A DNA stretch of 64,000 bases from Candidatus Pacearchaeota archaeon (GTDB lineage Archaea > Nanobdellota > Nanobdellia > Pacearchaeales > GW2011-AR1), in contig JAVZZP010000001.1 of NCBI GenBank assembly GCA_038885615.1, positions 119,191-183,190 of the forward strand. The letters run 5' to 3'. Below the pieces are notes generated by a model. That model was not told where the DNA came from, searched no databases, and saw nothing but the letters and a program-made list of their open reading frames with translations. How positions within the stretch are numbered: the stretch's first letter is position 1; every line of letters starts with the position of its first letter. The position numbers were made by a program, and so were the translations under genes. Below are positions 36,877-51,279 of the stretch, piece by piece.

Positions 36877-37510
36877 ACAAAACAGGGTTATAAAAGAATT
36901 TTTTCTTATAAAAAAAGAGTTTGAAAAGCAAAAAAAGCCTCGACTTGCTGCTGAGGGTTGGAATGATGATTGGAAAACTCTAATAGCCATAATCCTATCG
37001 GCACAGACAAGAGATTCTTTAACAATAAAAGTTTGCGAGGAGCTTTTTAAGAAATACAAAAATTCAAAAGAACTAGGTAAAGCTCCTCTTAAAGAAATTG
37101 AAAAATTAATTAGGCCTATAAATTATTACAAAACAAAAGCAAAAAACATAAAAGAAACTTCAAAGATTTTAGCTTCTTTGAAAAAATTTCCTGATTCTTT
37201 AGAAGAACTTATTAAACTGCCTGGAGTTGGAAGAAAAACAGCAAACGTTTTCTTAGCTGAAAGAAGAAAAGCTGCTTCTATTGGAGTTGATACCCATGTA
37301 GCCAGAATTTCTAGAAAAATGGGTTGGACAAAAAGCAAAAATCCCAAAAAAATAGAAGAAGATTTGATGAAACTTTTTCCTAAAAAATATTGGAACAAAA
37401 TAAATTATGTTCTTGTTGGTTTTGGACAAACAATAGGAAGAAGCAGAAAGAAGGAAGACGGGGTTTTGAAAAAAATCAAAGTTTATTCTTCCTCAAATTT
37501 TCCCAAATAA
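36866..37510 (+). CDS. HhH-GPD DNA glycosylase (endonuclease III family, no C-terminal Fe-S cysteine cluster)
   Basis: HhH-GPD motif LIKLPGVGRKTANVFL...D; catalytic Lys/Asp context present. Lacks the Cx6Cx2Cx5C cluster. Confidence 0.75.
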   Translation: MKNKQNRVIKEFFLIKKEFEKQKKPRLAAEGWNDDWKTLIAIILSAQTRDSLTIKVCEELFKKYKNSKELGKAPLKEIEKLIRPINYYKTKAKNIKETSKILASLKKFPDSLEELIKLPGVGRKTANVFLAERRKAASIGVDTHVARISRKMGWTKSKNPKKIEEDLMKLFPKKYWNKINYVLVGFGQTIGRSRKKEDGVLKKIKVYSSSNFPK

Positions 37511-39182
37511 ACTTAAAATATTCCTCGTTTGAAGTTTTTGCTAATTTTTCTATTATTAATTCTGGTGTTGAATTGGCAAGACGACCTAAAACAGGATTAT
37601 GATCAACAATTAAATTGAAATTCTCATCGAGACCTCTTGCTTCAATTCCATCTATACGGGCTTTTTCTGGCAAAATAGGTAAAATTTCTTTTCCTAAATG
37701 AGTTGCAAAAACGCAAAAACATTCTTTCTCTAAAAAATATTTCATAGTAGAAGAAATAATCTCTCCTGCAACTCCTGGTTCTGTTAGTGCTTCTATTTCA
37801 TCTGCCAAAATTATTGTTTTTCCCTTAGGTTTTATTGAAGACATTTGCATAAGAAGATTTTCAAAAGCACCCCTCGTTGGAGAACCTTTGTTTTTTGCAA
37901 AATAATAAACTTGTTCAAAAAAAGGAATAATTAATTCACCAGAAACTGGTAGTCCTAACTGAGAAATAAAAATTAATTGAATTAAATGCTCTAGCAAGGT
38001 TGTTTTTCCACCCGAATTTGCCCCTGTTAAAACAGAACCTCTTTTGTCTTTTAACTCAAAAGTTATAGGTTGCGGATTTTCTAGAAAGATATTCTTTGAA
38101 TTTTTTATGGACAAAAAATCAGAAAAAACTGGATAAATTTTTCCTTCTATATAATTATAAAGTCCAGAACAAAAATCAAAAAGCAAGAGATTTTTTTCTA
38201 GTTCAAAAACTTTTTTTTCTATGTCTTTTATTTTTTCTGCATTTTTCTGTAGTTTCGCCACAAAATCAGAAAATTTTTTTTGGTTTTTTCTTTTTATGTA
38301 TTTTTCTAGCCCTTCGTAATTTATTTTAAGGGGCAAACCAATTTCAAAAATCTCTTCTGAAAGATTCCTTTCTTTGATTTCTTTTTCTATTTTTGTTTTT
38401 ATTTCCTCGGGAAGACCTTTAGTTAAAAGGGAAACTAATTTTTCTCCGCTTATTGTTTGCCCTTTTAATTCTGTTAAAATTTTCTCATTGATTTCGTCGC
38501 ATTTTTCTTCTAATTCTTCAATTTTTATTTCTTCTTTTTCTTCTTCTAGCAAAGAAACCAAAGAAAAAAGTTCTTCTGCTATTTTTTTTATTTTCTCGTC
38601 TCCGCATTCTTTAATTATTATTTCTAGATTTTCTTTCCAACCGGACAGGAAAGAAAGGTGCCTTTCTAAATAAATGTCTTCAAGATTATCAATAAAAATT
38701 GTTTGGGGCAATCTTTCCAAAATTATAGAAAAATTCTCACAATCAATTACCTGAATTACGTCGTATTTTTCTAATTCATTTAAATCTCTTTCAGAGCTTA
38801 TTAAAGAAACAGGGCAATCTAAATTTTGTAATCTCAAAAAAGTTTCTTCACTTTCTGTAACAATTAAAATTTCATATTTGGGATACCAGAATGGCTTCGG
38901 CTTTTTTAGTTTTCTCAAAAATTCTGATTTTTCTTTTTTTATTGATTTAAAAAATTCTTGTTTTTCTTTTATTTTTTCAAAAGAATTCTCCCTTATAAAA
39001 AAGTTAAACAGATATTTTGTGTTTTCAAAAGAAAAATTTTCACATAAAAAATTAAGTATTTTTTGTACTATCGCTTTTGCATCTTTTGTTTTAAAAATTT
39101 TGCTTTGCTCTATATTTTTATCAGTTTCTTCAAAAAGCCTTAGTTTTTCTTTTTCAATAAAAGATAAAATTTCTTTTTCCAT
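37476..39182 (-). CDS. MutS2-like ABC-type ATPase (MutS domain V only)
   Basis: Walker A LTGANSGGKTTLLEHL; Walker B IILADEIEALTEP. No mismatch-recognition domain. Confidence 0.65.
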   Translation of the reverse strand: MEKEILSFIEKEKLRLFEETDKNIEQSKIFKTKDAKAIVQKILNFLCENFSFENTKYLFNFFIRENSFEKIKEKQEFFKSIKKEKSEFLRKLKKPKPFWYPKYEILIVTESEETFLRLQNLDCPVSLISSERDLNELEKYDVIQVIDCENFSIILERLPQTIFIDNLEDIYLERHLSFLSGWKENLEIIIKECGDEKIKKIAEELFSLVSLLEEEKEEIKIEELEEKCDEINEKILTELKGQTISGEKLVSLLTKGLPEEIKTKIEKEIKERNLSEEIFEIGLPLKINYEGLEKYIKRKNQKKFSDFVAKLQKNAEKIKDIEKKVFELEKNLLLFDFCSGLYNYIEGKIYPVFSDFLSIKNSKNIFLENPQPITFELKDKRGSVLTGANSGGKTTLLEHLIQLIFISQLGLPVSGELIIPFFEQVYYFAKNKGSPTRGAFENLLMQMSSIKPKGKTIILADEIEALTEPGVAGEIISSTMKYFLEKECFCVFATHLGKEILPILPEKARIDGIEARGLDENFNLIVDHNPVLGRLANSTPELIIEKLAKTSNEEYFKFIWENLRKNKL

Positions 39183-39223: not shown

Positions 39224-41980
39224 TCATAAAGGAAAAAAACTTTTTCTAGCTGTTACGACTAAAGAACAATCCGTTGGTTCATTCCCAAATTCATCCTTGC
39301 ATTTTATGTAGTATGTTTTATCGTTGTCCCAAGGAGAAACATGAACTCTTGATTTAGCAAAAGGCATATTTGTTCCTTCATTAAATAAATAGTCACAACT
39401 CTCTGTTGAATAAACACAATCAGAAATTCTATTAGTTTCTATTCTTAAATAATCATCGCTGTAAAAAGCTCTTGCTATAAGTGGTGGCGTCGTTACAATT
39501 TCAAGTTCAAATTCTCCTTCTGTTTCTGCTAAATTTCCTCCGGCATCAATGCATTTAACATAATATTTATGTCTTCCATCATAAAGATCTAATCTTTGAG
39601 TGCTTATACCGTCGGCTTTATTTGTATCAAAGAAAGGTATAAAGCTATTTGGATATCCGGTTAATGAGTAGAAGCATGTTGCTTTATTGTCGTTACAACC
39701 AAACAAAGTTTCAACCTTCAATTCAACTGAAAAAGGAGAAAATCCTCCCACAACTTTTGTGTTGTTTGGTGATATTGATTTTATTTTTAGAGGATTTGAA
39801 CCTCTCACAGAATATTTGAAAGATTGCATCATTTTATTTCTTTCTTTTTCCTCTAATCCAGGATTATCTTTACATCTTATATAGTAATCAGTTCCTTCTT
39901 TCTTTATGCCTATTAAGTTTGCTCTACAAGTGTATAGAAGCATAGAATTTATTTCAAAAACATTTTGTACACAGGACATATTGTAAGTCATTTCTTCAAA
40001 GTCCTTATCCTTAAAATCCCATCTGCATTCCGCAGGTTCATCAGTATAAAATTCAACAATAGAAGAGTTTTGATCTGCTGCTATACAATTTTCACTTTCT
40101 ATTGAAACTGCTTTTATTTGTGGGGGAGTGTTGTCTGGAGCATCATCAACACAAAATCTTACCGCATAAGGTGCTTGATTTACATTTCCTTGTGCATCTC
40201 TGCACATAATATATAAAGTCATTTCTTTGCCCATCTCTAAAGTTAAAGAAGAATTTTGCAAATCTTTTGCTCTTGGAACATGAAGAATTGCGGAGAAATT
40301 CTTTCTGTAAGTGCTGTCTTCATCCATATAAGAGAGCATTTCTTCAAAGGTGTTTTTCTTTTCCAAGTCTATCTTGCATTGAGCAGGTTCATTTGTTAAA
40401 ACACCAAATTGTATTGGTGAGAATGCCTTGATACAAGGATTCACATCCTGTCTAACTATTCTAAATCCAGGACCAGGAGGAGAGGTTCTTACATCTGTAT
40501 AAGCATAACCCTCTGTTAGTTTCTCATTCCACGGCATTATTATAGGGGGAGAAACCTCTCTCTTACTATTATCAACACATAACTCATTACCAGTTCCCTG
40601 ATTTACTAGGGCACAGGTTTGTCCTAGGGATTTGCAGCGATATTCAGAACAAGGCAAGCCATCTTGATTGCATAAATCACAATCCTCCCCCCCGTGAGGT
40701 GCCTGCCAAGGAAGACATTTAAATTCAACTTGCTCCTCAAAAGTTTTTGTCTTCTCATAATTTTTTACATAATACCACCAAGCGACTGCGGCACCAATGG
40801 CAACATGAAATGTTTTTGAACCAAGAAATTTAACAAACTTATTTTGAGAGCTAGTTAAATCAAACCAACCTCCTTCTCCTAAAACCTGCTGTGCTGTTTT
40901 AAATGAAATAACTCCTAAAAAAGCTGCTTCAGCAATAGAATCAACCATTTCTTGATTTTCTTTTGCAACAAAGCTTCCGGCTGCTTTAATAAAGCCCCCA
41001 ACTGCTATTGCCCAAGTAAGCCCTTCAACCAAATGCCCAATTCCACCATATTTAAAAATTGAAAGATTTGCTTTTTTAGCCCATTCGAAAGGATAATCAT
41101 CTCTTTTACCTGACCAATAACCCGTCTTTTTACCTTCTGGTGGATCTTGCGTCGGACTATCTCTTTCTCTTGACTCCTCACTTCCTCCTTTTCCATTATC
41201 GCTATTACTTCTATCAACCCGCAAAGCTGTTCCCCCCTTTGTTGGTGTTTGCGCCAAACTAGTAGACTTACTATTATGCACCAAAACCCCCTCGGCAAAA
41301 TACCATTTTCCGCCTAAATCCAAGTCAAAAACCTCAATTCCTTCTGGCTTTTCAACAATTTCAATTTTTTCAATGAAAACTTTTTTTCCGTCAATTCCCA
41401 AAAAATAATCGCTGACTTTTGCGTTGCCGACAGGCTGCCATTTTCCATTAAGCAAAACCTCGTGATTCGGAGTTATTTCAAGCTTGTCATTTATCTTTAA
41501 ATAAGAATATTTCTTTAAAACAATAACATTTCGCACAACCTCTTTTGTCAGCGCGCGCTTTTCAAAATCATAACTAAGCACCTCGTCGCCCGGCCTTATT
41601 TCTGAGATCGGCTTTGTTTGAAGGTTCGCGAGGGTGATGAGAGTTGAAGGAGTGAGACATGATGCTGGGTTTAATTTTCTATTGAGAATTGATACAACAT
41701 CTTCTTCATCAGAAATATCTACATCTTCTTCTATGTTTCGGCTTTCTCCTACCTGCCTATACCATTTATCACCTTGCTTATAATAAACAATAGACTTAAA
41801 AAGAGCGCTTCCAACAAAAGTATCTACGACAATAGTATCATCAGAGATTGTTTTATAATATTCTCTTATTTCCTGGTTATTTCCACTCGCCCTCTCCGCC
41901 ATTCCAATCATATAAGCAAAACTCACAATTCCCAAAATCATTAAAAACATCTGGCTGTAGGCGAGTGCGCACTTGTTCAT
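39224..41980 (-). CDS. giant secreted disulfide-rich surface protein (918 aa) with N-terminal mini-intein, glycine-zipper hydrophobic segment and four C-terminal ~105-aa tandem repeats
   Basis: N-terminal signal/TM (MFLMILGIVSFAYMIGMA). Hint domain at aa 108-236. Hydrophobic Gly/Ala-rich segment at aa ~311-405. C-terminal domain opens FKCLPWQAPHGGEDCDLCNQDGLPCSEYRCKSLGQTC, homologous to aa ~843-880 of the 1341-aa ORF. Four repeats each end in YY(I/V)(K/R)C(K/I)D..GN. 4-nt ATGA overlap with the upstream 774-aa ORF. Confidence 0.8.
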   Translation of the reverse strand: MNKCALAYSQMFLMILGIVSFAYMIGMAERASGNNQEIREYYKTISDDTIVVDTFVGSALFKSIVYYKQGDKWYRQVGESRNIEEDVDISDEEDVVSILNRKLNPASCLTPSTLITLANLQTKPISEIRPGDEVLSYDFEKRALTKEVVRNVIVLKKYSYLKINDKLEITPNHEVLLNGKWQPVGNAKVSDYFLGIDGKKVFIEKIEIVEKPEGIEVFDLDLGGKWYFAEGVLVHNSKSTSLAQTPTKGGTALRVDRSNSDNGKGGSEESRERDSPTQDPPEGKKTGYWSGKRDDYPFEWAKKANLSIFKYGGIGHLVEGLTWAIAVGGFIKAAGSFVAKENQEMVDSIAEAAFLGVISFKTAQQVLGEGGWFDLTSSQNKFVKFLGSKTFHVAIGAAVAWWYYVKNYEKTKTFEEQVEFKCLPWQAPHGGEDCDLCNQDGLPCSEYRCKSLGQTCALVNQGTGNELCVDNSKREVSPPIIMPWNEKLTEGYAYTDVRTSPPGPGFRIVRQDVNPCIKAFSPIQFGVLTNEPAQCKIDLEKKNTFEEMLSYMDEDSTYRKNFSAILHVPRAKDLQNSSLTLEMGKEMTLYIMCRDAQGNVNQAPYAVRFCVDDAPDNTPPQIKAVSIESENCIAADQNSSIVEFYTDEPAECRWDFKDKDFEEMTYNMSCVQNVFEINSMLLYTCRANLIGIKKEGTDYYIRCKDNPGLEEKERNKMMQSFKYSVRGSNPLKIKSISPNNTKVVGGFSPFSVELKVETLFGCNDNKATCFYSLTGYPNSFIPFFDTNKADGISTQRLDLYDGRHKYYVKCIDAGGNLAETEGEFELEIVTTPPLIARAFYSDDYLRIETNRISDCVYSTESCDYLFNEGTNMPFAKSRVHVSPWDNDKTYYIKCKDEFGNEPTDCSLVVTARKSFFPL
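41273..41659 (-). mobile_element. mini-intein / Hint domain (~129 aa, no homing-endonuclease domain) inside the 918-aa ORF
   Basis: Block A C-LTPSTLITLA with Cys1. Block B LEITPNHEVLL (T-x-x-H). Blocks F/G VFDLDLGGKWYFAEGVLVHN with terminal His-Asn, followed by +1 Ser (HN|S). Coordinates calculated from ORF start 41980: aa 108 to aa 236. Confidence 0.7.
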
Positions 41981-44301
41981 TTCTCCTCCACTAAAAATTT
42001 AATTCCTGTTCCATACTCTCCAAGAGATAGTCCTTCTTCTGAGCTTCCACCTGAAACAATTTTTTTGGGAATCTCTTTTCCAGCCAACTTCTCCCACATT
42101 TTCTGAGCAAAAGTTTTATCCTCTTTAATAACTGTTTGCTGCTTTATTTCTTGAGGAAAGCTTAGTTTTTCAACTCTGATTTCCTCTCCGTCACTTGCGA
42201 CAATTACATCACCCACTTTTATTTCTTCTATTTGCTTCAAAGAATATTTATCTTCTTTTTTTAATAAAACATAACTTCCTTTTCTAACCTCTATTCTGTC
42301 ATTAATTAAAATAGAATCCTTTCTTTCTTTAATTACAAATCCTGTTCCTCTTGTTTGATGGCCTTGTTTCAAATTTCCTAGCAAACTGAAAGAAGAATTT
42401 TTGTATTTCCAAGAATAACCATCATCTGTATATTTATCATTTATATTTACATTAGCACCGCAATCACCCAAGGAAGTACAAATTGCATTTACTTTTACTG
42501 CCCAATCGTGCTTTGGAATTAAAGAGTAACTTTTTGAGCTTCCCTTAGGAGGACTTCCTCCTTCCCATTCTAAACACTCGCTCGTTACCTCAACCCCGCT
42601 TTCATTTACCATCTTAAATTCATATTCTTTGTCTCCAAAAGGACCTGCAATACTAGAATATTTTTCGGTTCTTTCTATTATTACCTTGCAAACAGCAGAG
42701 GCCATATTGCAATTTCCTTCACCAAGCCAGAACTTATTTCCAGGAGGAATCAAAGGAACACAAAGACCTCCTTCATCAACCTCGCTTTTATTGAATTTAG
42801 TAACTTTATTCAGAATATCATAATCAAATTCCCATATTCCTTTGCCGCTTGAAACAAAAGGATTGAGTGCTTTTCCTGTAATAACCTTTCCCGTAGGATT
42901 AGTAAAAAAAGGTGCTGCTTGTTGAACAAGTCCTGCTGCTTGCATTGCTGTGTCTACTCCTGACTGTCCTCCAGAAGTTGGATTCTGAAAATAGGGGGTA
43001 GGATTAGAAAAGCTAGATGTTTGCTGTTGTGCTTTGTTCCAATTCAAACCTTCAACATCGTCTATCCAGATACAATCCCTAACATCAATATTTTCACAAT
43101 CTTTCTTTCTCCATTGATAAATACAATCTTGCCAGCGATTTACACGGCAGGCTGCTGTTGAAAATTCTCCTGCAGAAGTCTGAATTCCTGAATGAATGCA
43201 AATCTGTTTTCTATAATCCGCACAAGGATCTGTAACAACTTCTCCGTCTATGCAAATTTGCCTGAAATGCCTTGAACCAACTTTTTCATAACCTTTTCCT
43301 GGTTCAATATCATAAACACACCAGCTTTCTCCGTTTAAGCGGGTTTTTCCACTCATATCTTTACATGTTGTTTTTTTACAGATATACTCTCCTTCTTTTC
43401 CTAAATCTGTTGTTTTCTTTCCATCTTTTCTCGCACAAACACTTCCTAAAAGATAATCGCAGTTTCCACAACTATTACTGCCACCGCTTCTTGGACAAAT
43501 TTCATCTGGATCGGCAACTCTTCCGCGATTCCAAGATTTATCTTTGTCAGAAGAATAAACATTTTCCCTATTTCCACAAGAATCAAACCAATAAACTTTT
43601 CCTTTATAACAACCAACACTTGTTTGCCTAGCACACTCCGTATGTAACTCTTCGGCAGAGCATAGAACATCTTTGTAAAATTTCTTTCCTGTTTCTTGCT
43701 CTAGAATAGATTTATTAACATTTAAAGCAATTACCCCATCTTTTGCCCCACACTCTTTTCTAGTCGTAAATTTGCACTCATTAACTCCTGTTCCTGTATA
43801 GGTGACACAAGCCCCCATATCTTGAGAATTAGCTAAAAAAATACACTCGCCTTCATCTGTAACCGAAGCTCTGAAATCCATTGAAATTCCATAATAAGTA
43901 GAAAGTTTTTTACAACGGGCTAAAGTAACCAATGCTGCTTGGTCAGCAATAATACAACAACCTAAACGACAAGTAGGAATTTCTGAAGCTTTTTTCTCGC
44001 TCCAGGTTCCATTTCTGTCTTGACAAACCTGCTGAGGAACATTTTCCATGCAAAGACCCTCTTTAGAATCATAACAAGTTCCTGTTTTACAAAAAGAGGT
44101 TTGCTCACAGAAAGAGGGGGCAATTCTAAAAGACGAATCACATTCGCTCTCCGCGGAGTTTAAACAAGCTCCTCCTGATTTTGTTCTCTCGCAACAAACA
44201 GAAGGGGTTGAAAGTATGGCGGAAGATAAACTAAGAAGGAATGTTAAAAGAAATAAAATCAAAAATAATTCTTTTATCAATAAGATCCTGCGGATGGCCA
44301 T
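41977..44301 (-). CDS. giant secreted disulfide-rich surface protein (774 aa), paralog of the N-terminal ~560 aa of the 1341-aa ORF
   Basis: Signal peptide (LFLILFLLTFLLSLSSAILS). Shared blocks with the 1341-aa ORF: three C..GCC modules; VYWFDSCGNRENVY ~ VYFVDSCGNIANIY; SCGNCDYLLGSVC ~ SCGNCNYIGGSVC; NGESWCVYDIEPGKGYEKVGSRHF ~ HGESWCVYDINPLSGISPVGSRHF. About 60 Cys. Confidence 0.8.
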   Translation of the reverse strand: MAIRRILLIKELFLILFLLTFLLSLSSAILSTPSVCCERTKSGGACLNSAESECDSSFRIAPSFCEQTSFCKTGTCYDSKEGLCMENVPQQVCQDRNGTWSEKKASEIPTCRLGCCIIADQAALVTLARCKKLSTYYGISMDFRASVTDEGECIFLANSQDMGACVTYTGTGVNECKFTTRKECGAKDGVIALNVNKSILEQETGKKFYKDVLCSAEELHTECARQTSVGCYKGKVYWFDSCGNRENVYSSDKDKSWNRGRVADPDEICPRSGGSNSCGNCDYLLGSVCARKDGKKTTDLGKEGEYICKKTTCKDMSGKTRLNGESWCVYDIEPGKGYEKVGSRHFRQICIDGEVVTDPCADYRKQICIHSGIQTSAGEFSTAACRVNRWQDCIYQWRKKDCENIDVRDCIWIDDVEGLNWNKAQQQTSSFSNPTPYFQNPTSGGQSGVDTAMQAAGLVQQAAPFFTNPTGKVITGKALNPFVSSGKGIWEFDYDILNKVTKFNKSEVDEGGLCVPLIPPGNKFWLGEGNCNMASAVCKVIIERTEKYSSIAGPFGDKEYEFKMVNESGVEVTSECLEWEGGSPPKGSSKSYSLIPKHDWAVKVNAICTSLGDCGANVNINDKYTDDGYSWKYKNSSFSLLGNLKQGHQTRGTGFVIKERKDSILINDRIEVRKGSYVLLKKEDKYSLKQIEEIKVGDVIVASDGEEIRVEKLSFPQEIKQQTVIKEDKTFAQKMWEKLAGKEIPKKIVSGGSSEEGLSLGEYGTGIKFLVEEK

Positions 44302-45044
44302 GGGTAGCTTCTTACAGCAAAATTAAATTTAATTTTTTCATTTTTTTCTATAACTGAATATACCTTAGTATCATCATCTCTTCTCTCCTTTAAAATTTTT
44401 ATGTTAGGATAGTATAACATTTGCTGCATTTGTTCGCTATCACCATAATAAGTTTCAAATTGAATCAATGAAGTCGCTATCATCAATACCTCATATAAAT
44501 TTGTTTTATATTTGTAAGTCAGATCTTTTTTTGAAGAGGTTGTTTCACCGAAAGATAGTTTTATCGGAGCTTTAATTTTAACCTTAACTTCTTTTGGCTC
44601 TATAAAAACCTCGTAAGAGATTTCTCCTCTTTCTACATCAAGGCCTCTCTTCTGTAAATCTTTAATTGAATTCTCATAACATTTTTCAAAATCTTCTTTT
44701 ACTAACTCCTTTAGTGATTGCTCAAATCTATCTTTCAAGAAAGGCTCTTGGTTCACACACGGTTTTAAATATTCGTTTGTATAACAAAGAATAGTATAAT
44801 TTTCCCCCTTATACATATAAGTAAATTTTGGCTCAAGAACCCCTGCTTTTAAAGATAACTCCTGAATTTTCTTTGACAAAGAGCCGTCTAAACAATTTTC
44901 AAAGCCGCTTGTTCTAAAACCAAGACGATTAGTAATAGGTTTAATAAATTCTGGTTTCAGAGAATTGATGATAAAAAAAACTCCAAAAACTAAAATAATT
45001 CCTAAAATAATAAATAAAGCAACTTGCCCCCTTTTGTTTTTCAT
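44277..45044 (-). CDS. class-III signal peptide (archaeal type-IV-pilin-like) protein, 255 aa
   Basis: MKNKRGQVALFIILGIILVFGVFFII: basic n-region, G at -1, Q at +1, ~20-residue hydrophobic stretch, no Glu+5 (archaeal PibD/EppA-type substrate pattern). Paralog of 49080-49841 (shared C..PC pair, DxTKVY...K(I/F)(K/N)FA(I/V)R). Overlaps the downstream 774-aa ORF by 25 nt. Confidence 0.6.
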   Translation of the reverse strand: MKNKRGQVALFIILGIILVFGVFFIINSLKPEFIKPITNRLGFRTSGFENCLDGSLSKKIQELSLKAGVLEPKFTYMYKGENYTILCYTNEYLKPCVNQEPFLKDRFEQSLKELVKEDFEKCYENSIKDLQKRGLDVERGEISYEVFIEPKEVKVKIKAPIKLSFGETTSSKKDLTYKYKTNLYEVLMIATSLIQFETYYGDSEQMQQMLYYPNIKILKERRDDDTKVYSVIEKNEKIKFNFAVRSYPWPSAGSY

Positions 45045-45078
45045 ATTTTTTAAAGAAAAAATGTCTTTATAAATTCTT

Positions 45079-48000
45079 TTATTTTAGGTTTATTGGTTTG
45101 ACAGAAATACAAAACTTCTGTTCATTTAGTTTTTTGTCTCTGCATTTAATATAATAAGTTTCATAAGGATTTGCAGAAAAACTATGCGTTTTAGACAAAT
45201 ATTTAGTTGAAGAAGCATTTTGAATATCTCTTAAACTTTTTTCGCAAACTTCGGAATAATTTAAATGATAAAAACACTCTGCGTCCTCATCTGTTTGCAA
45301 GGACAATCTATTACCATCGTAAGCTGTTCTTACTATTATTGGTGGTTGTTCGTCGAAAAAAACCTGGAAATTAAAAGTTGTTTCGTTTATGTTTTTAGCT
45401 TCATCTTCACACTTAACATCAATAGAATATTTTCCTTGTGGCAGCATTAATAATTGACTATGTGCTGTCCCACCAGTTTCATAGAAGTTTATAAATCCGG
45501 AGGAAAAATTTTCAATTTTATAAGAGCAAATCGCATTTCCTAAGCAACCAGAAGTACTAACTGAAAGAGTGAAGTTTTTCTCTTCAATAAAAGTGTTTCT
45601 ATTAATAAGGTTTATATTTATGCCCTCTCTACAGACATTTAAGATGTATTCTTTACTATGAAGATTTGGATTTCTTTTATCAAATTCTGTTTCTTCGGTT
45701 AAGTCAGGTTTATCCTTGCATCTGAAATAAAATTTATTTTGTCCTTCTTCTAAATTTGATAAAAGTGTGAAGCACCTCCATTCTCCAAGGAAAACACTAT
45801 CTTGAGAGGTTAGACAAGTCATATTATTTGGCATTTTCTCGTAACCTTGCTCTCCTGTAACAACATCATATTCCTGGATAAATCTGCATTCTGCCGGCTC
45901 ATTAAGATATAAGATAACTGCGGTCGAATTTGTTCCTTTTTTTAGATAGCTTCCACTAGCAGGTTCAAATCTTTTTAATTCAGCCGGAGTTAAGTCGTAG
46001 CTATCTTTTACTTTTATCTGAACAACAAATTCTGCCTCGTTTACTTGGCCCGCAAAATTCATACATCTTATATAATATTCATTTTCCTCTCCAACAGATA
46101 AACCAAGAGTGTTTGTTGAAGCTGTTTTATCTCTTAAATAAGGAGAAAGAGTTATTTTATGGTGTGTGCCTTCTGCTTTCCCTGTTTGAGGATTTATTTC
46201 AGAAATCATCTCAAATTTCATTTCATCATAGTTTTTTGTGTGTTCATAATCTATCTTGCATGTTGCTGGTTTGTCTGTGATAATACCAAAAGTTAATTCT
46301 TGCCATGGTTCTACTCCGCCGCCATTTGGTCCAGCAATTCTAAATCCGTTGTCTCTTATGTTTGTATATGAGTTCCCCTGTGTTAAAATCTCTGGCCAAG
46401 GAGTTATTTTTGCCTGCCATATTTCATTAATTGTCGCACAATAGCCCGGTTCTCCTTTGTCAACAAAATAATGACATCTTGCTCCTAAAGATTTACATCT
46501 GTATTCAGAGCAGGGCCTTACATCCTCATTGCAAAGCTCGCATTGAGATTCTTTTGGAGGTTTCCAAGATTGGCAGGAGAATTGCATGATGAAATATTCT
46601 TGTTCTTCATATTCATCGAAAAAAGCTGTATAAATAGTGTAAACAATTGCAGCAGCAAGAACAATCCAACCAATTGGATTTGTAGCTAAGAGACCTCCTG
46701 CTGTAGCAAAAAATCCAGAACCTGAAGCTGCTGCAGATCCAAATCCAGTAGACAACCCAATTCCCACGGCAGCACCAACAGCAGCACCGACACTTGCCAT
46801 GAACATATTAAATTGATTTGATTTTCCAGGACTCCAATCCTGGTTTTTGGAAATTAATTTTCCAATTTGATAACCTACAACGGCCCCTACTGCTGCAGCA
46901 CCTAAGACATAACCTCCTGCAGCTAAACCCCCTTTAGAAAAAGCTACAGCTCCGGCCTCCAACCAAGTACTTCCAGTAATAACAGCCAAACTAGTCCCAT
47001 AAGTACCTATAACTCCTGATAAGGCACTAAACCCTCCCAACGCCATTAAACCACTAATTACCATTGCTCCAGTCATTACATCATCAAATCCTCCTCCATC
47101 TCCAGGATTAACATTAGCTTGGCTCGCTAGTTTATTCAAATCAATAACTCCGGTTTGTGGGTCTCCGATAGTTCCTGCCGTATCTCCCGCATCTGCTGTT
47201 AAACCACTTCCTCGCGAAGCGATATCTTTAAGAGATTTTATTTGAGAAATTGATTTTTTTATTGAAGAAATATAATCCTCTGATAAAGTATAATTTTCAC
47301 TTGAAACCTCTTTTTGTTTTCCGGTTTTATCTATTTTCATTCTTTTTACTGTAAAACCTATTGTTGCATTATCATTATTCACTTTCCCAACAATATTAGA
47401 TGAAACTCCGCAAGTTCCAATTGCACGACATCTTTCATTTAAAGCAGCCATTAAAGCAGGCAAATCTTTTGTTTTTATGTTTTGATTAACTCCATCTATA
47501 TTGCATTCCCAATTTCTTTCATGGTCTTTCCAATCACCACAACCTCCTGCGAGAGTGCAATCCCTATGTATTTGACTAATACAAACAAAACTTCCTAAAG
47601 AACAGACTGCTGTTGATTCGAATTCGCTTCCACCATAATTTGCAGAAGAAAGTGTCTTTTGTTGCTGACTAGAAGAAGTTTGACTTGCTTTTCCGACAGG
47701 TGCTTTTGTTGTCCAGAATTGAAAACCTGGAGTAAATCTTGGTACGCAATGAGCTAAAACTTTGTTTTGGTCTTTTCCTAAATCATCAATTGCTCCTTGT
47801 TCAGCATTTGTTTTTTCAGGATCAAAACCAGCAAGAAATTTGTCATCGCTTCTTTTTAATTTGTCTTCTCCATAAAACTCATTAAACATTATGCATTGAG
47901 GGTTTTCATCGCATTTTTGTTTTACCTGCTCATAAGATTCTGCATCATTTGCATTTAAACAAGAACGCCAATCATTTACTAAGCATTTAGCAGAAGTATA

Positions 48001-49104
48001 ACCAGAAGAGCTATCTGTATTTTGGGCACAAATTTCTTGCATAAAATCAGCACAACCTTCAATGGTAATTTGCTCTTCAAAACAACGAGCTATAAAATGC
48101 CTTGAACCTACTGGAGAAATGCCGCTTAAAGGATTAATATCATAAACACACCAGCTTTCTCCGTGTTTTCTTTCTCCGCAATGCAAACTTTTACAAACAT
48201 AATCTCCGAAAGTCGGTTTTGGAGTTTTTCCTTGTTCATATTTTGTGCAAACACTTCCGCCTATATAATTACAATTACCACAAGAAGGGCTTTCTGGAGA
48301 ACAAGAATTCTCTGGAGGAATTGGTTTTTCCCAATAGCTTTGATCATCTGCCTTAGAAGCATCGTAGATATTCGCTATGTTTCCGCATGAATCAACAAAA
48401 TAAACTTGGTCTTTATCTTCAACACAGGTTGTTTTCTTTGTAGGTTTGCAAACAGTTTTTAATTCTTTTGCAGTACATAAATAGCCTGGCTTAAAATCCC
48501 CTGTTTTGCAGTTTTTCTTAGAGGTATAAACACAATTTTTCTCACCTGAAAAATCGCCCGAATCTGAAAGACAAGCTCCCAGTTCTTCTAAACCGAAATA
48601 TTTTTCGCAGCTCTCTCCGCTAGCCAAAGGGACAAATTTTTTTTCAAAATTATACTTGTTTGCTAGCAGGGTGCATTCTCGAGAGTTAGTTAGAGAAACT
48701 TGTGTTCCTAAAATACAACAACCTAACTGACATTGTGGAATGTTGCAACTAGGACTATCACTCCAATTTCCTCCGTTCTCCAAACATTTTTGTTTTGGAG
48801 AGTTCATTGAGCAGGTTCCTGTCGAAGGCGAATAACAGCAACCAATTCTACACTCATCAACAGAAGAACAAGAAGTTAAAAAAAGATTCTCCTTGCATAT
48901 GTCTGACTGAAAAAAAGGAATTTCTTGACAGATTGCTCCTTCTTTTGTTTCACGACAGCAACCCTTAATAGAGTCCTGTTGTGCAGAAACAATTTTTATA
49001 TCCTTTTCCGAAATTAAATAGGCAAAACTGAAAATAGCCAAAACCATTAAACTTATTTCTAAAGTTGCTATTTTCTTTTTCATATTCCGGCAGGCATTAC
49101 ACAA
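45079..49104 (-). CDS. giant secreted disulfide-rich surface protein (1341 aa), the unsplit form of the 774+918 pair
   Basis: Signal peptide (IATLEISLMVLAIFSFAYLI). N-terminal ~560 aa homologous to the 774-aa ORF. Gly/Ala-rich hydrophobic segment at aa ~672-829 (GAMVISGLMALGGFSALSGVIG...AAVGAVVGYQIG...VGAAVGAAVGIGLSTGFGSAAASGSGFFATAGGLLA...). C-terminal ~500 aa homologous to the 918-aa ORF C-terminus (FSCQSWKPPKESQCELCNEDVRPCSEYRCKSLGARC; four YY.(K/R)C.D repeats). No intein. Confidence 0.8.
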   Translation of the reverse strand: MCNACRNMKKKIATLEISLMVLAIFSFAYLISEKDIKIVSAQQDSIKGCCRETKEGAICQEIPFFQSDICKENLFLTSCSSVDECRIGCCYSPSTGTCSMNSPKQKCLENGGNWSDSPSCNIPQCQLGCCILGTQVSLTNSRECTLLANKYNFEKKFVPLASGESCEKYFGLEELGACLSDSGDFSGEKNCVYTSKKNCKTGDFKPGYLCTAKELKTVCKPTKKTTCVEDKDQVYFVDSCGNIANIYDASKADDQSYWEKPIPPENSCSPESPSCGNCNYIGGSVCTKYEQGKTPKPTFGDYVCKSLHCGERKHGESWCVYDINPLSGISPVGSRHFIARCFEEQITIEGCADFMQEICAQNTDSSSGYTSAKCLVNDWRSCLNANDAESYEQVKQKCDENPQCIMFNEFYGEDKLKRSDDKFLAGFDPEKTNAEQGAIDDLGKDQNKVLAHCVPRFTPGFQFWTTKAPVGKASQTSSSQQQKTLSSANYGGSEFESTAVCSLGSFVCISQIHRDCTLAGGCGDWKDHERNWECNIDGVNQNIKTKDLPALMAALNERCRAIGTCGVSSNIVGKVNNDNATIGFTVKRMKIDKTGKQKEVSSENYTLSEDYISSIKKSISQIKSLKDIASRGSGLTADAGDTAGTIGDPQTGVIDLNKLASQANVNPGDGGGFDDVMTGAMVISGLMALGGFSALSGVIGTYGTSLAVITGSTWLEAGAVAFSKGGLAAGGYVLGAAAVGAVVGYQIGKLISKNQDWSPGKSNQFNMFMASVGAAVGAAVGIGLSTGFGSAAASGSGFFATAGGLLATNPIGWIVLAAAIVYTIYTAFFDEYEEQEYFIMQFSCQSWKPPKESQCELCNEDVRPCSEYRCKSLGARCHYFVDKGEPGYCATINEIWQAKITPWPEILTQGNSYTNIRDNGFRIAGPNGGGVEPWQELTFGIITDKPATCKIDYEHTKNYDEMKFEMISEINPQTGKAEGTHHKITLSPYLRDKTASTNTLGLSVGEENEYYIRCMNFAGQVNEAEFVVQIKVKDSYDLTPAELKRFEPASGSYLKKGTNSTAVILYLNEPAECRFIQEYDVVTGEQGYEKMPNNMTCLTSQDSVFLGEWRCFTLLSNLEEGQNKFYFRCKDKPDLTEETEFDKRNPNLHSKEYILNVCREGININLINRNTFIEEKNFTLSVSTSGCLGNAICSYKIENFSSGFINFYETGGTAHSQLLMLPQGKYSIDVKCEDEAKNINETTFNFQVFFDEQPPIIVRTAYDGNRLSLQTDEDAECFYHLNYSEVCEKSLRDIQNASSTKYLSKTHSFSANPYETYYIKCRDKKLNEQKFCISVKPINLK

Positions 49105-49841
49105 GTGCGAATTGCAAATTTAATTTCTTTTTTAGAATCTCCGGCTGAATTTAAAATATAAACTTTAGTAGAGTCACCACCGCGAAATCTATCAATTTTA
49201 ACATCACGGTTCATTGCTTGCCAAACCATTAAATCAAATTCACAAAATGTTGATTCATAATTATTTATTGTCTCGGCAGTTCTTAGAAGAGCTGGAAGAG
49301 ATGATTTAAAGTTTCCTTTTAGATTTGAAATAGAAAGAGATGACTCCCCCTTGGAAAGATGAATATTTGTTTTAAAATCAAATGAAATTTGTTTTTCTTC
49401 AAAAATTAAATTAAAGGAATAATCTTCATATAAAAAAGAATACCCTTTTTTATCATAATTCTCCTTAATTGTTAATAAACATCTAGATAGATCCCTAGAA
49501 ACCTTATTTTCAATCTTTCTTCTTACTGACTCAATAAACAAAGGAGATTGTTGAACACAAGGAAAATAAAACTCAGAGGTAAAGCAAGAAAAAGGTACTC
49601 TTTCTCCACGATAAACATAAAAAACCTTAAACTCTTCTAAAAATTGTTTTTCTTTAAAAAAATTTTCTTCGTGCTTTTTTATAGAGTCTAAAATACAACT
49701 TCTTATGTCTAAAGAAGGGTCTTCTATGCTTTTTTTACTAAAGATAACCTCTGGTTTGATAAAAAAAAATAAAAAAACTGAAAAAAGAAGAATAATTCCA
49801 AGAATAATGAATAATACTGCTTGACCTCTTTTATTTCTCAT
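49080..49841 (-). CDS. class-III signal peptide (archaeal type-IV-pilin-like) protein, 253 aa
   Basis: MRNKRGQAVLFIILGIILLFSVFLFFFI: same KRG|Q + hydrophobic architecture as 44277-45044. Overlaps the 1341-aa ORF by 25 nt. Start lies 20 nt from the stop of the upstream DAC gene. Confidence 0.6.
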   Translation of the reverse strand: MRNKRGQAVLFIILGIILLFSVFLFFFIKPEVIFSKKSIEDPSLDIRSCILDSIKKHEENFFKEKQFLEEFKVFYVYRGERVPFSCFTSEFYFPCVQQSPLFIESVRRKIENKVSRDLSRCLLTIKENYDKKGYSFLYEDYSFNLIFEEKQISFDFKTNIHLSKGESSLSISNLKGNFKSSLPALLRTAETINNYESTFCEFDLMVWQAMNRDVKIDRFRGGDSTKVYILNSAGDSKKEIKFAIRTCVMPAGI

Positions 49842-49861: not shown

Positions 49862-50479
49862 CTATTTAAACTTATTTTTAATATATTTCTTAAAAAAGTA
49901 ATAAGGAACACCTAAAAGAATTATCCCGGGAACAACAGCAATCCCTAAGCCTGGAGCTAAAGCGGAAACTCCAATTGTTGAGAGTGTTCCAACACCAACA
50001 CTTTCCAAAATTTCATTTGCTTCTCTGACCTTTTTTTCAACATTTTTTTCAAGCGCATCTATTTGAACAGTTATCTTTCCTTGCCTAAAAATTTTTATTT
50101 TCTTCTCTTCTTGAGAAATTAAAACAGATAAGCTATCTTTTTCCAAGGAGGCCGAATATGCCGCCGCGTGCCTTGTGCCATACTCTCTAAAAACTCTTTT
50201 TGACTCAATCTTGGCTCCGTAATCTACAACCATTCCTTCCTTGTTTATTATTACCGCTCCATCTATTATTGCTAAAGATAAAAGAATTTTTTTTGCTCCT
50301 GGCTCAAAAATAGAAAAAGGCTCAAATCTCTGCTTCAGCATTTTTTTATACTTACAATTATCTGAAACAACAAACAAGGCTCCCTCCCCTTTTTTTGCTA
50401 TATCAATACCTACAGAAATAAGCAATTCCTCTATTTTTTTTATTTTTTTGATGGATCTATCTGTCATTTTAAAAATCAA
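49862..50479 (-). CDS. diadenylate cyclase (DAC-domain, c-di-AMP synthase) with C-terminal transmembrane segment
   Basis: GALFVV...IDGAVIINKEGMVVDYGAKI...GTRHAAAYSASLEKDSLSVLISQEEKKIKIFRQGKI matches the DAC signature (GALIV...DGAVII...GTRHRAA...DS..IVVSEE.G.IS). C-terminal GVGTLSTIGVSALAPGLGIAVVPGIILLGVPYYFF is hydrophobic. ATGA overlap with PCNA upstream. Confidence 0.7.
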   Translation of the reverse strand: MIFKMTDRSIKKIKKIEELLISVGIDIAKKGEGALFVVSDNCKYKKMLKQRFEPFSIFEPGAKKILLSLAIIDGAVIINKEGMVVDYGAKIESKRVFREYGTRHAAAYSASLEKDSLSVLISQEEKKIKIFRQGKITVQIDALEKNVEKKVREANEILESVGVGTLSTIGVSALAPGLGIAVVPGIILLGVPYYFFKKYIKNKFK

Positions 50480-51195
50480 TCATTATCAACTCTTGGAGCG
50501 AGAATAAAAGAAATACCCAAACTGTCTCCTGGAAAAACAAGTTTTAAAGGATAATTATCAGAAAACATAATTTTTACCTTTTCAGAAATTTTAGCGGCTT
50601 TTATAAATTTCATTAAATATTCAAGAGAATATTTGGCTCTTGCCCCGCCTTTGAATTCATAATTAGAAGGAAAATCGACCTTAACAGAACTTAAAGAACC
50701 TTTCGCTTCTATTCTAAAAAAACCATCTTTAACGGAAAAAGAACATGAATCTGCAACAACGTAGCAATCTTCTATTGTTCTTGAAAAGTCTTGTGAAGAA
50801 ATCTCTCCTTCAACTGAGAATTCCAAAGAAGGCTCCTTTTTTTCTTCAATGTCTGTTTCTATTAAAGAAAGATTGAAAGTTCTCTTTGACGAATCCTCCA
50901 AGGAAATTTTTAGTGTATTTTCATCTCTTTCAAATTCAACAAAATCAGAGTTATAGGCCCTTTTTAAAATCCTTTTTAAGTCTTCTAAATTAACAGCCAA
51001 TTCGTCATTTTCTGCTTCATAAATTGCAAAACTCTCTTTTGGAACCTTAAAAATAACCATTGCAACATTTGCAGGATCAACCGCACTTAAAGAAAGCCCT
51101 TCTTCTAAAAACTTTAATTTTACTTCTACAACTAATTCAGAAATTATATTAAGTGCGTCAATAAAAGATTTTGGATTTTCTAGTTTAATCTTCAT
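50476..51195 (-). CDS. pcn: DNA polymerase sliding clamp PCNA
   Basis: 239 aa; N-terminus MKIKLENPKSFIDALNIISELVVEVKLKFLEEGLSLSAVDPANVAMVIFKVPKESF typical of archaeal PCNA; two-domain length. Confidence 0.8.
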   Translation of the reverse strand: MKIKLENPKSFIDALNIISELVVEVKLKFLEEGLSLSAVDPANVAMVIFKVPKESFAIYEAENDELAVNLEDLKRILKRAYNSDFVEFERDENTLKISLEDSSKRTFNLSLIETDIEEKKEPSLEFSVEGEISSQDFSRTIEDCYVVADSCSFSVKDGFFRIEAKGSLSSVKVDFPSNYEFKGGARAKYSLEYLMKFIKAAKISEKVKIMFSDNYPLKLVFPGDSLGISFILAPRVDND

Positions 51196-51279
51196 ATAAT
51201 AGAATTTATTTAAACATTTATAAAGATTATTATTTGAAAAAGTAGGAATTTATTTAAATAAACCTATATAAAAAAGAAC

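What the first reader, a model, noticed from the sequence alone, without database searches (positions are those of the whole stretch)
44277..45044. Paired 'pilins' with archaeal class-III signal peptides but unusually large (~230-aa) Cys-containing globular domains
Both small partners (44277-45044 and 49080-49841) start M(K/R)NKRGQ followed by ~20 hydrophobic residues. This is the KG/RG|Q pattern cut by archaeal prepilin peptidases (PibD/EppA; Q+1 as in Methanococcus pilins), without the bacterial Glu+5. Their mature parts are ~4x longer than structural pilins. Each is translationally coupled to a giant exoprotein, which suggests a minor-pilin/adhesin-presenting or anchoring role rather than a fibre subunit. 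No FlaI/FlaJ/PibD homologs are in this window.
Basis: partly seen in the sequence, partly recalled or inferred. Interest (0 to 1): 0.65.

Follow-up and report, generated by a model that had tools for sequence, protein, structure and literature searches.

The report
Pilin-like partners of giant surface proteins
Two small genes in this Pacearchaeota (DPANN archaeon) genome encode unannotated membrane-anchored proteins with a pilin-type N-terminus, each paired with a giant cysteine-rich surface protein, and this pairing recurs in hundreds of related uncultured archaea, where it may form a host-attachment apparatus.

Summary
ORFs 44277-45044 and 49080-49841 (minus strand) are paralogs (28% identity, E 6e-22). 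Both begin M(K/R)NKRGQ followed by about 22 hydrophobic residues, and each overlaps the start of a giant Cys-rich gene.

Among 136 relatives the N-terminus is the best conserved part: K, R/K, G/A, then Q (100%), V, T, I, F (97%), I, I. That fits an archaeal class III (prepilin) signal peptide. The ~210-aa domain is modelled confidently (pLDDT 86.7), has two co-conserved disulfides, and matches no solved fold, Pfam or NCBIfam family.

The family occurs in at least 229 Pacearchaeota/Woesearchaeota species genomes. The usual gene order is PCNA, small, giant (whole or split), then four further families with pilin-like N-termini. Extra giants always bring their own small gene, while the four-gene block stays single.

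My best reading (confidence 0.5) is a pilin-like adaptor specific to its giant partner, analogous to minor pilins with PilY1 or to Methanococcus Epd loci.

The main weakness is that no pilus ATPase, platform protein or prepilin peptidase lies in the window or within 10 kb of the gene in 86 related loci. I could not examine the rest of the genome, so cleavage is unproven and an uncleaved signal anchor remains a serious rival. I classify it as a new variant of a known kind.

The parts
44277..45044 (-). Small protein B (255 aa), the reported finding. Residues 1-6 (MKNKRG) are the putative class III signal peptide and Q7 is the putative +1 residue. Residues 7-28 form the hydrophobic helix and 31-42 a disordered neck. 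Residues 45-250 form an alpha/beta ectodomain with C51-C122 and C87-C96.
   Evidence: ORF and translation. AF2 model with pLDDT 86.7. Motif conservation. Paired loss of Cys. This is the ancestral type: 34 of 37 single-module loci carry a B-like small gene.
49080..49841 (-). Small protein A (253 aa), a paralog of B with the same MRNKRGQ start and hydrophobic N-terminus.
   Evidence: 28% identity, E 6e-22. Aligns across its full length in A1.
45079..49083 (-). Giant protein A (about 1334 aa from ATG 49083; the longest ORF starts at TTG 49104). It has an N-terminal conserved anchor helix and a Cys-rich ectodomain (47 Cys in aa 49-565). A Gly/Ala-rich region with four hydrophobic segments (aa 681-830, no Cys) follows. 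The second ectodomain carries 21 Cys in aa 844-1332.
   Evidence: No Pfam, NCBIfam or PDB sequence match.
41977..44301 (-). Giant protein B, N-half (774 aa). It has a hydrophobic N-terminal segment like the Sec-type signal peptides seen on N-halves in relatives, followed by the Cys-rich ectodomain, which is homologous to giant A aa 49-412.
   Evidence: The family has 1072 members at 42-50% identity, all annotated as hypothetical. The AF2 model has low confidence (pLDDT 63.6) and no fold match.
39224..41980 (-). Giant protein B, C-half (918 aa). It has the conserved anchor helix, a Hint/mini-intein insert, a hydrophobic region and a C-terminal ectodomain homologous to giant A aa 814-1332.
41273..41659 (-). 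Hint (mini-intein-like) domain inside giant B C-half, residues C108-N236, followed by Ser+1.
   Evidence: Pfam Vint 1.3e-6, and Intein_splicing, Hint and PT-HINT. PDB Hint domains at E about 3e-3. Present only in close relatives.
49862..51195 (-). Conserved upstream neighbours: PCNA (50476-51195) and a DAC-domain (diadenylate cyclase) membrane protein (49862-50479).
   Evidence: Pfam. PCNA precedes the small gene in 51 of the 87 regions clustered (gene order).

Best explanation
The two ORFs belong to a large, unannotated family found in Pacearchaeota and Woesearchaeota. Members are about 250 aa and resemble type IV pilins only at the N-terminus.

Proposed mechanism:
1. The protein is made with a six-residue class III signal peptide (MKNKRG).
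2. A PibD/EppA-type prepilin peptidase probably cuts it before the invariant Gln.
3. This leaves a ~22-residue hydrophobic helix, a flexible neck of 16-25 residues, and a disulfide-stabilised ~210-aa alpha/beta ectodomain of a fold not seen before.
4. Each small protein is co-translated with, and specifically binds, the giant Cys-rich surface protein encoded just downstream, which has two ectodomains.
5. Through its pilin-like helix, the small protein links that giant to a short pilus-like or pseudopilus scaffold. The scaffold would be built from the four other pilin-like proteins of the operon (p165, p316, p175, p165'), which in this genome lie on another contig.

Shown here: the motif and its conservation, the extracytoplasmic disulfide pattern, the gene pairing, the duplication of small and giant genes together, and the co-occurrence with four other families that have pilin-like N-termini.

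Inferred: cleavage, physical binding to the giant, incorporation into a filament, and a role in attachment to host cells.
For: - N-terminal motif K-[RK]-[GA]|Q-V-T-I-F-I-I in 132 of 136 relatives, with Q+1 at 100% and F+5 at 97%. In archaeal class III substrates, positions -2, -1 and +1 are the decisive ones and Glu+5 is often absent (PMC3387779). Q+1 after Gly is the hallmark of EppA substrates (PMC3875500).
- The ORF cannot be extended upstream.
- The globular domain is confidently modelled, and the Cys pairs are lost only together. VKOR and a DsbA-like protein are encoded in the window, so the domain lies outside the cytoplasm.
- The small-then-giant adjacency holds in 106 of 132 cases, with overlapping stop and start codons.
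- Loci carry 1-3 small-plus-giant modules but only one p165-p316-p175-p165' block.
- The four block families have [KR][GA]|[QF] N-termini. Their globular parts are unrelated to each other and to the small protein, whereas the N-terminal stretches give hhalign probabilities of 13-96%, high only for small-p165 (95.6%) and p165-p316 (96.4%).
- This MAG retains a p316 homolog, QXX68_03040.
- The family is widespread: at least 229 species genomes and 6886 cluster representatives.
- Precedent: Methanococcus/Thermococcus clade 1 pilus loci hold at least 5 minor pilins plus two large PilY-like proteins, with the major pilin and the machinery encoded elsewhere (PMC4858521, PMC3875500).
Against: - No Pfam or NCBIfam pilin model matches, even at E up to 10.
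- Foldseek finds no pilin or any other fold.
- The hydrophobic helix is separated from the domain by a disordered neck. In classical pilins it continues into a helix packed against a sheet.
- No ATPase, platform or A24 peptidase gene lies in the 64-kb window or within 10 kb of the gene in 86 related loci.
- One preprint states that type IV pilus components are missing from DPANN genomes (10.1101/2020.05.14.094862). Others report them in some DPANN (10.64898/2026.04.22.720090, PMC8561730).
- The giant partner has its own anchor helix and about four further hydrophobic segments. That suits a membrane complex better than a pilus tip.
- No small major-pilin gene lies near any locus.
Confidence: 0.5

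Rival explanations
1. Uncleaved signal anchor. The N-terminus is not processed, and the small protein is a type II membrane protein. It would be a stable subunit or a dedicated assembly/folding factor for the giant membrane protein, which has 66-68 Cys. No type IV pilus machinery would be involved.
For: - No pilus machinery in the window or in any flank.
- No pilin HMM or fold match.
- The giant is itself membrane-embedded, so a membrane-anchored partner is natural.
- The flexible neck between helix and domain resembles a tether.
- A preprint claims DPANN lack type IV pili (10.1101/2020.05.14.094862).
Against: - Signal anchors need only charge and hydrophobicity. Here Q+1 is invariant, -1 is restricted to G/A/S, and +3 to +7 are 71-97% conserved in proteins that share only about 30% identity overall.
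- Four neighbouring families with unrelated domains have the same kind of N-terminus.
- There is no CxxC motif or thioredoxin fold to suggest a disulfide isomerase.
Confidence: 0.3
2. Two-component cell envelope (S-layer-like). The giant forms the outer layer and the small protein is its membrane stalk or anchor, as with SlaA/SlaB in Sulfolobales.
For: - One small plus one giant, encoded in tandem, strongly conserved and nearly universal in the lineage.
- The giant N-half is 42-50% identical across the family, which suits a structural envelope protein.
Against: - The giant has its own anchor helix and hydrophobic segments.
- Genomes carry up to three diverged modules.
- A separate ~795-aa secreted protein, a possible S-layer candidate, flanks several loci.
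- SlaB is anchored by a C-terminal helix and has a coiled-coil stalk; neither is seen here.
Confidence: 0.1
3. Structural (major) pilin. The small protein polymerises into a fibre.
For: Class III-like N-terminus. Large major pilins exist in some bacteria (PMC11046646).
Against: - One-to-one genetic pairing with giants, and duplication together with them.
- No continuous long N-terminal helix packed on a sheet.
- The two in-genome paralogs share only 28% identity.
Confidence: 0.05
4. Bindosome-type binding protein. A class III-anchored solute- or ligand-binding protein, as in Sulfolobus sugar-binding proteins.
For: A class III N-terminus plus a linker plus an independent globular domain is the same layout as those proteins (10.64898/2026.04.22.720090).
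Against: - No similarity to any substrate-binding family or fold.
- No ABC transporter is linked to the small and giant genes; the only one in the window (58445-59140) lies more than 7 kb from the cluster.
Confidence: 0.03

Closest known systems
EppA-processed pilin-like proteins of the Methanococcus/Thermococcus Epd pilus (archaeal T4P clade 1, 'system 1'; Pfam DUF361/Class_IIIsignal)
   Same: - Short basic signal peptide ending in Gly, with Gln at +1 and Ser/Thr at +3.
- Pilin-like proteins of 200-299 aa exist there too.
- Those loci combine at least 5 minor pilins with two large putative adhesins.
- The major pilin and the machinery are encoded elsewhere (PMC3875500, PMC4858521).
   Different: - Position +5 is Phe (97%), not Glu.
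- No Pfam model matches.
- The globular fold is unrelated to anything known.
- The large partners lack DUF2341 and are membrane-embedded and Cys-rich.
- No EppA, ATPase or TadC gene is nearby.
Bacterial minor pilins with PilY1 (FimU-PilVWX-PilY1; M. xanthus priming complex)
   Same: Four core pilin-like genes plus a very large non-pilin surface protein in one operon. Each large protein comes with its own cognate pilin-like partner (PMC7541494).
   Different: - PilY1 is a soluble secreted protein with a beta-propeller; this giant has hydrophobic membrane segments.
- No sequence or fold relationship.
- This is an archaeal G/A|Q signal rather than G|F with Glu+5.
Class III-anchored substrate-binding proteins of Sulfolobales (bindosome)
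   Same: A pilin-type N-terminus is used to tether an independent, non-pilin globular domain through a linker.
   Different: No binding-protein fold and no ABC transporter adjacent to the genes. Here the partner is a giant surface protein.
Modular pilins of Streptococcus sanguinis (PilB, PilC)
   Same: Pilin-type N-terminus carrying a functional, adhesion-related module (PMC8179133, PMC9934059).
   Different: Those proteins keep a complete pilin fold with a module grafted onto it. Here only the hydrophobic N-terminal helix is pilin-like.
SlaA/SlaB two-component S-layer
   Same: A small membrane-anchored protein encoded next to a very large surface protein.
   Different: The anchor is at the other end of the protein. 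There is no coiled coil. The giant is itself membrane-embedded, and several diverged modules occur per genome.

Membership tests
Archaeal class III signal peptide / type IV pilin-like proteins | Short N-terminal leader with K/R at -2 and G/A at -1, followed directly by a hydrophobic stretch of about 20 residues | tested here: met
   MKNKRG|QVALFIILGIILVFGVFFII. In 132 of 136 relatives: -2 R/K 96%, -1 G/A/S 98%, +1 Q 100%.
Archaeal class III signal peptide / type IV pilin-like proteins | Cleavage by an A24-family prepilin peptidase (PibD/FlaK/EppA) encoded in the same genome | not testable with these tools
   No A24 peptidase in the window or in 1.37 Mb of related loci. The rest of the 279,750-bp contig and the MAG could not be read.
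Archaeal class III signal peptide / type IV pilin-like proteins | Match to curated pilin N-terminal models (Pfam Class_IIIsignal/DUF361, archaeal Pilin_N, N_methyl; NCBIfam) | tested here: not met
   No family at E up to 10 for the N-terminal 43 residues, and none for the full proteins.
Archaeal class III signal peptide / type IV pilin-like proteins | Pilin fold: a long N-terminal helix whose C-terminal half packs against a beta-sheet or beta-sandwich | tested here: not met
Archaeal class III signal peptide / type IV pilin-like proteins | Clustering with other pilin-like genes | tested here: met
   In 39-46 of the 87 regions clustered, the operon continues with p165, p316 and p175, and in most of these a second p165 (p165'), all with [KR][GA]|[QF] N-termini. 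In this MAG the p316 homolog is on another contig.
Archaeal class III signal peptide / type IV pilin-like proteins | Linkage to a pilus assembly ATPase and platform protein | tested here: not met
   None in the window or within 10 kb of the gene in 86 related loci. Linkage is not obligatory in archaea: M. maripaludis pilus genes lie in at least 4 loci (PMC3875500).
EppA-type (DUF361) pilins | QxSxE motif: Gln +1, Ser +3, Glu +5 | tested here: not met
   Q+1 100%, T/S +3 85%, but +5 is Phe in 97%.
PilY1 / DUF2341 pilus-tip adhesins (for the giant partner) | DUF2341 or PilY1 beta-propeller domain; a soluble secreted protein | tested here: not met
   No such Pfam hit at E up to 0.1. The giant has an anchor helix plus about four hydrophobic segments. 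Its N-half model matches no fold.
Periplasmic/extracytoplasmic chaperones or thiol-disulfide oxidoreductases | Chaperone or thioredoxin fold; CxxC motif | tested here: not met
   No fold match. The conserved Cys residues are C51, C87, C96 and C122, with no CxxC.

The most novel reading that the evidence does not exclude
The whole conserved operon encodes a previously undescribed cell-surface machine of Pacearchaeota and Woesearchaeota. The operon comprises the small adaptor, a giant Cys-rich protein with two ectodomains and a Gly/Ala-rich membrane-active segment, and four further families with pilin-like N-termini. In this reading the machine is the host-contact or host-membrane-penetration apparatus of these uncultured episymbionts. 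It would use pilin-type helices as assembly elements, either independently of a canonical type IV pilus motor or with a highly diverged one.
Probability: 0.15. Interest if true: 0.85.

Novelty: new variant of a known kind. Interest (0 to 1): 0.55.

Why it matters
Pacearchaeota and Woesearchaeota are abundant, uncultured, small-genome archaea thought to live attached to hosts. How they attach is unknown, and the literature disagrees on whether they have type IV pili.

This locus is one of the most conserved surface-protein operons in the group. It occurs in at least 229 species genomes at a fixed position next to PCNA and primase, and it is entirely annotated as hypothetical. It combines five families with prepilin-type N-termini and giant disulfide-rich proteins.

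If the pilin-like reading is right, it provides named candidates for the attachment apparatus. It also gives a concrete, testable prediction: cleavage before an invariant Gln by an A24 peptidase. Finally, the small protein's domain is a confidently modelled fold with no known relative.

Tried and rejected
- **Family searches.** Pfam and NCBIfam scans of the small proteins, their N-termini and the giants found no family.
- **PDB by sequence.** Profile and sequence searches found nothing for the small family or giant A, and only Hint domains for the giant B C-half.
- **Reading the rest of this genome.** Looking up the small protein and the p316 homolog by exact sequence failed; they are not on record. 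I therefore could not search for the peptidase, ATPase or platform genes.
- **Machinery motifs.** A regex search for A24 (GxGD) and T2SSE motifs across 1.37 Mb of related loci found none. This covers only the same neighbourhood in each genome, so it says little about whole genomes.
- **The four-gene block.** tblastn of the window with the block proteins found nothing. A p316 homolog from the same MAG turned up on another contig.
- **Short major-pilin ORFs** near the loci: none.
- **Rejected: mobile element or virus.** Synteny with PCNA and primase is fixed across hundreds of genomes.
- **Rejected: enzyme.** The only invariant polar residues outside the Cys are Q7, E197 and Y229.
Full report
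**What is in the sequence**

The window comes from a Candidatus Pacearchaeota (DPANN) MAG. The protein from 44277-45044 is 100% identical to NCBI locus QXX68_01130, on a 279,750-bp contig. The region is about 30% GC.

Seven tightly packed genes lie on the minus strand:
- PCNA (50476-51195)
- a DAC-domain membrane protein (49862-50479)
- small A (49080-49841, 253 aa)
- giant A (45079-49083/49104, about 1340 aa)
- small B (44277-45044, 255 aa; the reported finding)
- giant B N-half (41977-44301, 774 aa)
- giant B C-half (39224-41980, 918 aa)

These assignments rest. Giant A aligns to the N-half of B over aa 49-412 and to the C-half of B over aa 814-1332, at 31% identity each. The region is therefore a tandem duplication of a small-plus-giant module in which the second giant is split.

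The small A stop and the giant A start form an ATGA overlap. Small B overlaps giant B by 25 nt.

Small A and small B are paralogs (28% identity, E 6e-22). They start MRNKRGQ and MKNKRGQ, followed by about 22 hydrophobic residues, at the first possible start codon.

From 134-136 non-redundant relatives collected from related loci, the putative cleavage region is the most conserved part of the protein:

| Position | Residues |
|---|---|
| -3 | K 77% |
| -2 | R 58%, K 38% |
| -1 | G 77%, A 18%, S 3% |
| +1 | Q 100% |
| +2 | V 70% |
| +3 | T 82% |
| +4 | I 71% |
| +5 | F 97% |
| +6 | I 91% |
| +7 | I 90% |

Published work says positions -2, -1 and +1 decide cleavage of archaeal class III signal peptides, and that Glu+5 is often absent (PMC3387779). 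Gly followed by Gln+1 marks EppA substrates in Methanococcus (PMC3875500).

Methanococcus EppA substrates do carry Glu+5, whereas this family has Phe. A size of about 250 aa is also not unprecedented, because MMP0600, MMP0601 and MMP0709 are 200-299 aa (PMC3875500).

**The globular part**

An AlphaFold2 model built on a 30-sequence alignment is confident (pLDDT 86.7, pTM 0.74). It shows:
- a helix at residues 4-28
- a disordered neck at 31-42
- a compact alpha/beta domain with helices 45-65, 103-132, 183-200 and 205-211 and nine strands

Four Cys are nearly invariant. C87 and C96 are lost together in 10 of 134 sequences, C51 and C122 together in 1, and never singly. This argues for two disulfides and an extracytoplasmic location. 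The window also encodes VKOR (9309-9755) and a DsbA-like protein (20501-21469).

The domain matches nothing known:
- no Pfam or NCBIfam family
- no PDB sequence
- no PDB or viral fold at E <= 1e-3, with best TM-scores below 0.3

**Distribution and context**

A profile search found 6886 cluster representatives at E <= 1e-3, and 2539 at E <= 1e-10. The top 150 are all full-length proteins of about 250-330 aa, apart from one 210-aa fragment.

A scan of species-representative genomes found relatives in at least 229 genomes. Nearly all are labelled Pacearchaeota, Woesearchaeota or Nanoarchaeota.

I clustered ORFs from 86 loci fetched from relatives plus a 32-kb stretch of the window (29001-61000). 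This gave a canonical gene order:

x421< x607< primase< PCNA [DAC] small giant [small giant]x0-2 p165 p316 p175 p165' wHTH<

The giant is either whole (about 1200-1400 aa) or split (about 550-600 plus 750-800 aa).

- The small gene is followed directly by a giant gene in 106 of 132 cases, mostly overlapping or no more than 4 nt apart.
- Single-module loci carry the B type in 34 of 37 cases, so the reported ORF represents the ancestral form.
- The four block families each have their own conserved [KR][GA]|[QF] N-terminus, for example K[KR][GA]QEE[IM]VGF, [KR]GFE[FI]SFAWLFA and K[KR][AG]Q[MF]KIQQMAFM.
- Profile-profile comparison shows their globular parts are unrelated to each other and to the small protein (probabilities below 3%). 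The N-terminal stretches align far better: 95.6% for small-p165 and 96.4% for p165-p316, and 13-56% for the other pairs.

Shared N-terminal helices with unrelated heads is the signature of pilin gene sets.

In this window the block is absent. The same MAG does encode a p316 homolog, QXX68_03040 (66% identity to the relative's), on a 23-kb contig.

**The giant partner**

Giant A has 68 Cys: 47 in aa 49-565, none in 566-843, and 21 in 844-1332. The Cys-free stretch is Gly/Ala-rich with about four hydrophobic segments. Both large domains should therefore be outside the cell, and the protein embedded in the membrane.

Full-length giants and C-halves share a conserved N-terminal anchor helix, KK..[AS]xx[QE]Ix[IL][LM]...FAF[SA]Y. 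N-halves of split giants instead have ordinary Sec-type signal peptides followed by CCE.

The N-half family has 1072 members at 42-50% identity, all annotated as hypothetical. Its AF2 model is weak (pLDDT 63.6) and matches no fold. There is no DUF2341 or PilY1 signature.

**What is missing**

Pfam scans of every window ORF of at least 120 aa that does not lie inside a longer, annotated ORF found no pilus ATPase, platform protein or A24 peptidase. No such gene appeared as a conserved neighbour or by motif search within 10 kb of the gene in the related loci. No short major-pilin gene lies near any locus.

I could not read the rest of this genome.

The literature is divided. One preprint states that type IV pilus components are missing from DPANN (10.1101/2020.05.14.094862). 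Others report FlaIJK-type or 'system 1'/4A loci in some DPANN (PMC8561730, 10.64898/2026.04.22.720090).

In M. maripaludis the pilus genes are scattered over at least four loci (PMC3875500). Lack of linkage is therefore weak evidence.

**Interpretation**

The best-supported reading (confidence 0.5) is a class III, pilin-like adaptor. The protein would be cleaved before Gln7 and held by its hydrophobic helix. Its novel ectodomain would bind the cognate giant and connect it to a short pilus-like or pseudopilus scaffold made by the four shared pilin-like proteins.

The argument that it is specific to its own giant comes from the gene arrangement. Each extra giant brings its own diverged small gene, while the four-gene block stays single.

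The closest analogues are the bacterial four core minor pilins plus PilY1 (PMC7541494), and the archaeal clade 1 (Epd) loci with at least 5 minor pilins and two large adhesins (PMC4858521).

The main rival (confidence 0.3) is an uncleaved signal anchor serving as a subunit or assembly factor of the giant membrane protein. It explains the missing machinery and the non-pilin fold. It does not explain the invariant Gln, the restricted -1 residue, or the same kind of N-terminus on four neighbouring families with otherwise unrelated sequences.

The S-layer-like, major-pilin and bindosome-like readings are less likely, for the reasons given under the rival explanations.

**Verdict**

The pilin-like interpretation is partly supported: the motif, its conservation and the gene clustering all fit. 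However, two defining features fail (HMM match and fold), and the decisive one, a peptidase in the genome and actual cleavage, is untested.

I classify it as a new variant of a known kind: a prepilin-type N-terminus fused through a neck to a novel domain, paired with giant membrane-embedded Cys-rich proteins, in a DPANN-wide operon annotated only as hypothetical. Interest is moderate to good (0.55).

Noticed in passing
window 41273-41659 (-), inside ORF 39224-41980: A complete mini-intein-like Hint domain (Cys108 ... His-Asn236 | Ser237, 129 aa) sits in the extracytoplasmic part of giant B C-half, just after its anchor helix. It occurs only in the closest relatives (L001/L008, L012). An intein or BIL domain in a surface protein is unusual, and it could splice or self-cleave.
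   Followed up: partly
window 41977-42340 (-), C-terminal ~120 residues of the 774-aa protein: The tail of giant B N-half (strands at aa 655-714) gives weak local Foldseek hits to several inteins (probability 0.1-0.7). Its sequence (..IEEIKVGDVIVASDGEE..) looks like the N-terminal part of a Hint domain but lacks the Cys1. It may be a relic of how the giant gene came to be split.
   Followed up: no
window 9309-9755 (+) and 20501-21469 (+): A VKOR homolog and a membrane-anchored DsbA/thioredoxin-like protein. Together they would form an extracytoplasmic disulfide-forming system, consistent with surface proteins carrying 66-68 Cys.
   Followed up: partly
window 25644-26102 (-): Another small ORF (152 aa, several Cys) with a class III-like start, MSKNKKG|AEESNVIIFIILALVV. 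It has no Pfam match and is unrelated to the block families. It is a possible additional pilin-like protein in this genome.
   Followed up: no
window 1415-2053 (-) and 2173-2835 (-): Two adjacent paralogous proteins with several hydrophobic segments (212 and 220 aa). Both have [KR]G-type N-termini followed by a hydrophobic stretch and share a TFGDI..FSTF motif. No family match.
   Followed up: no
window 57180-58085 (-): A secreted, membrane-anchored protein with two ComEA-like HHH_3 DNA-binding modules. A secreted staphylococcal-nuclease homolog lies at 11994-12716 (+). Together they suggest uptake or scavenging of extracellular DNA.
   Followed up: no
window 45079-49104 (-), residues ~660-826 of giant A: The Cys-free Gly/Ala-rich hydrophobic region gives a weak NCBIfam hit to the T6SS effector BTH_I2691 family (E 0.011, far below cutoff). 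This is probably a composition effect, but a membrane-active segment between two ectodomains is intriguing for a host-attached organism.
   Followed up: no
N-termini of window ORFs 45079-49083 and 39224-41980, and 55 giants in loci L001-L086: Full-length giants and C-halves share a conserved anchor helix with a buried polar residue (Q 54% / E 45%) and a FAF[SA]Y motif. N-halves of split giants have ordinary Sec-type signal peptides instead. Whether the anchor is processed is unknown.
   Followed up: partly
L007/L010, L012, L045, L054, L055, L070, L072 (between or next to giant halves): MNT/HEPN (nucleotidyltransferase / HepT-like) toxin-antitoxin pairs are repeatedly inserted between the two halves of split giant genes or next to small genes.
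   Followed up: no
window 50476-52773 and most related loci: The surface-protein operon sits at a fixed position immediately downstream of PCNA, with the primase small subunit divergently transcribed, across hundreds of genomes. Two conserved secreted or membrane proteins (window 52792-54759 and 54815-56077) flank the primase. I have no explanation for this linkage of replication genes and surface genes.
   Followed up: partly
not in window: protein P0302 (QXX68_03040) on a 23,322-bp contig of the same MAG: The p316 gene of the four-gene block with pilin-like N-termini directly follows the giant in the closest relatives. In this MAG it is on another contig, and a MutS2-like gene (37476-39182) follows giant B in the window instead. 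This indicates a rearrangement in this lineage.
   Followed up: partly
window 45045-45078 (-), upstream of small B: A TTTATAAA box lies about 25-32 nt upstream of the small B start codon, in the 34-nt gap after giant A. It may be an internal archaeal promoter giving a near-leaderless transcript for the B module.
   Followed up: no
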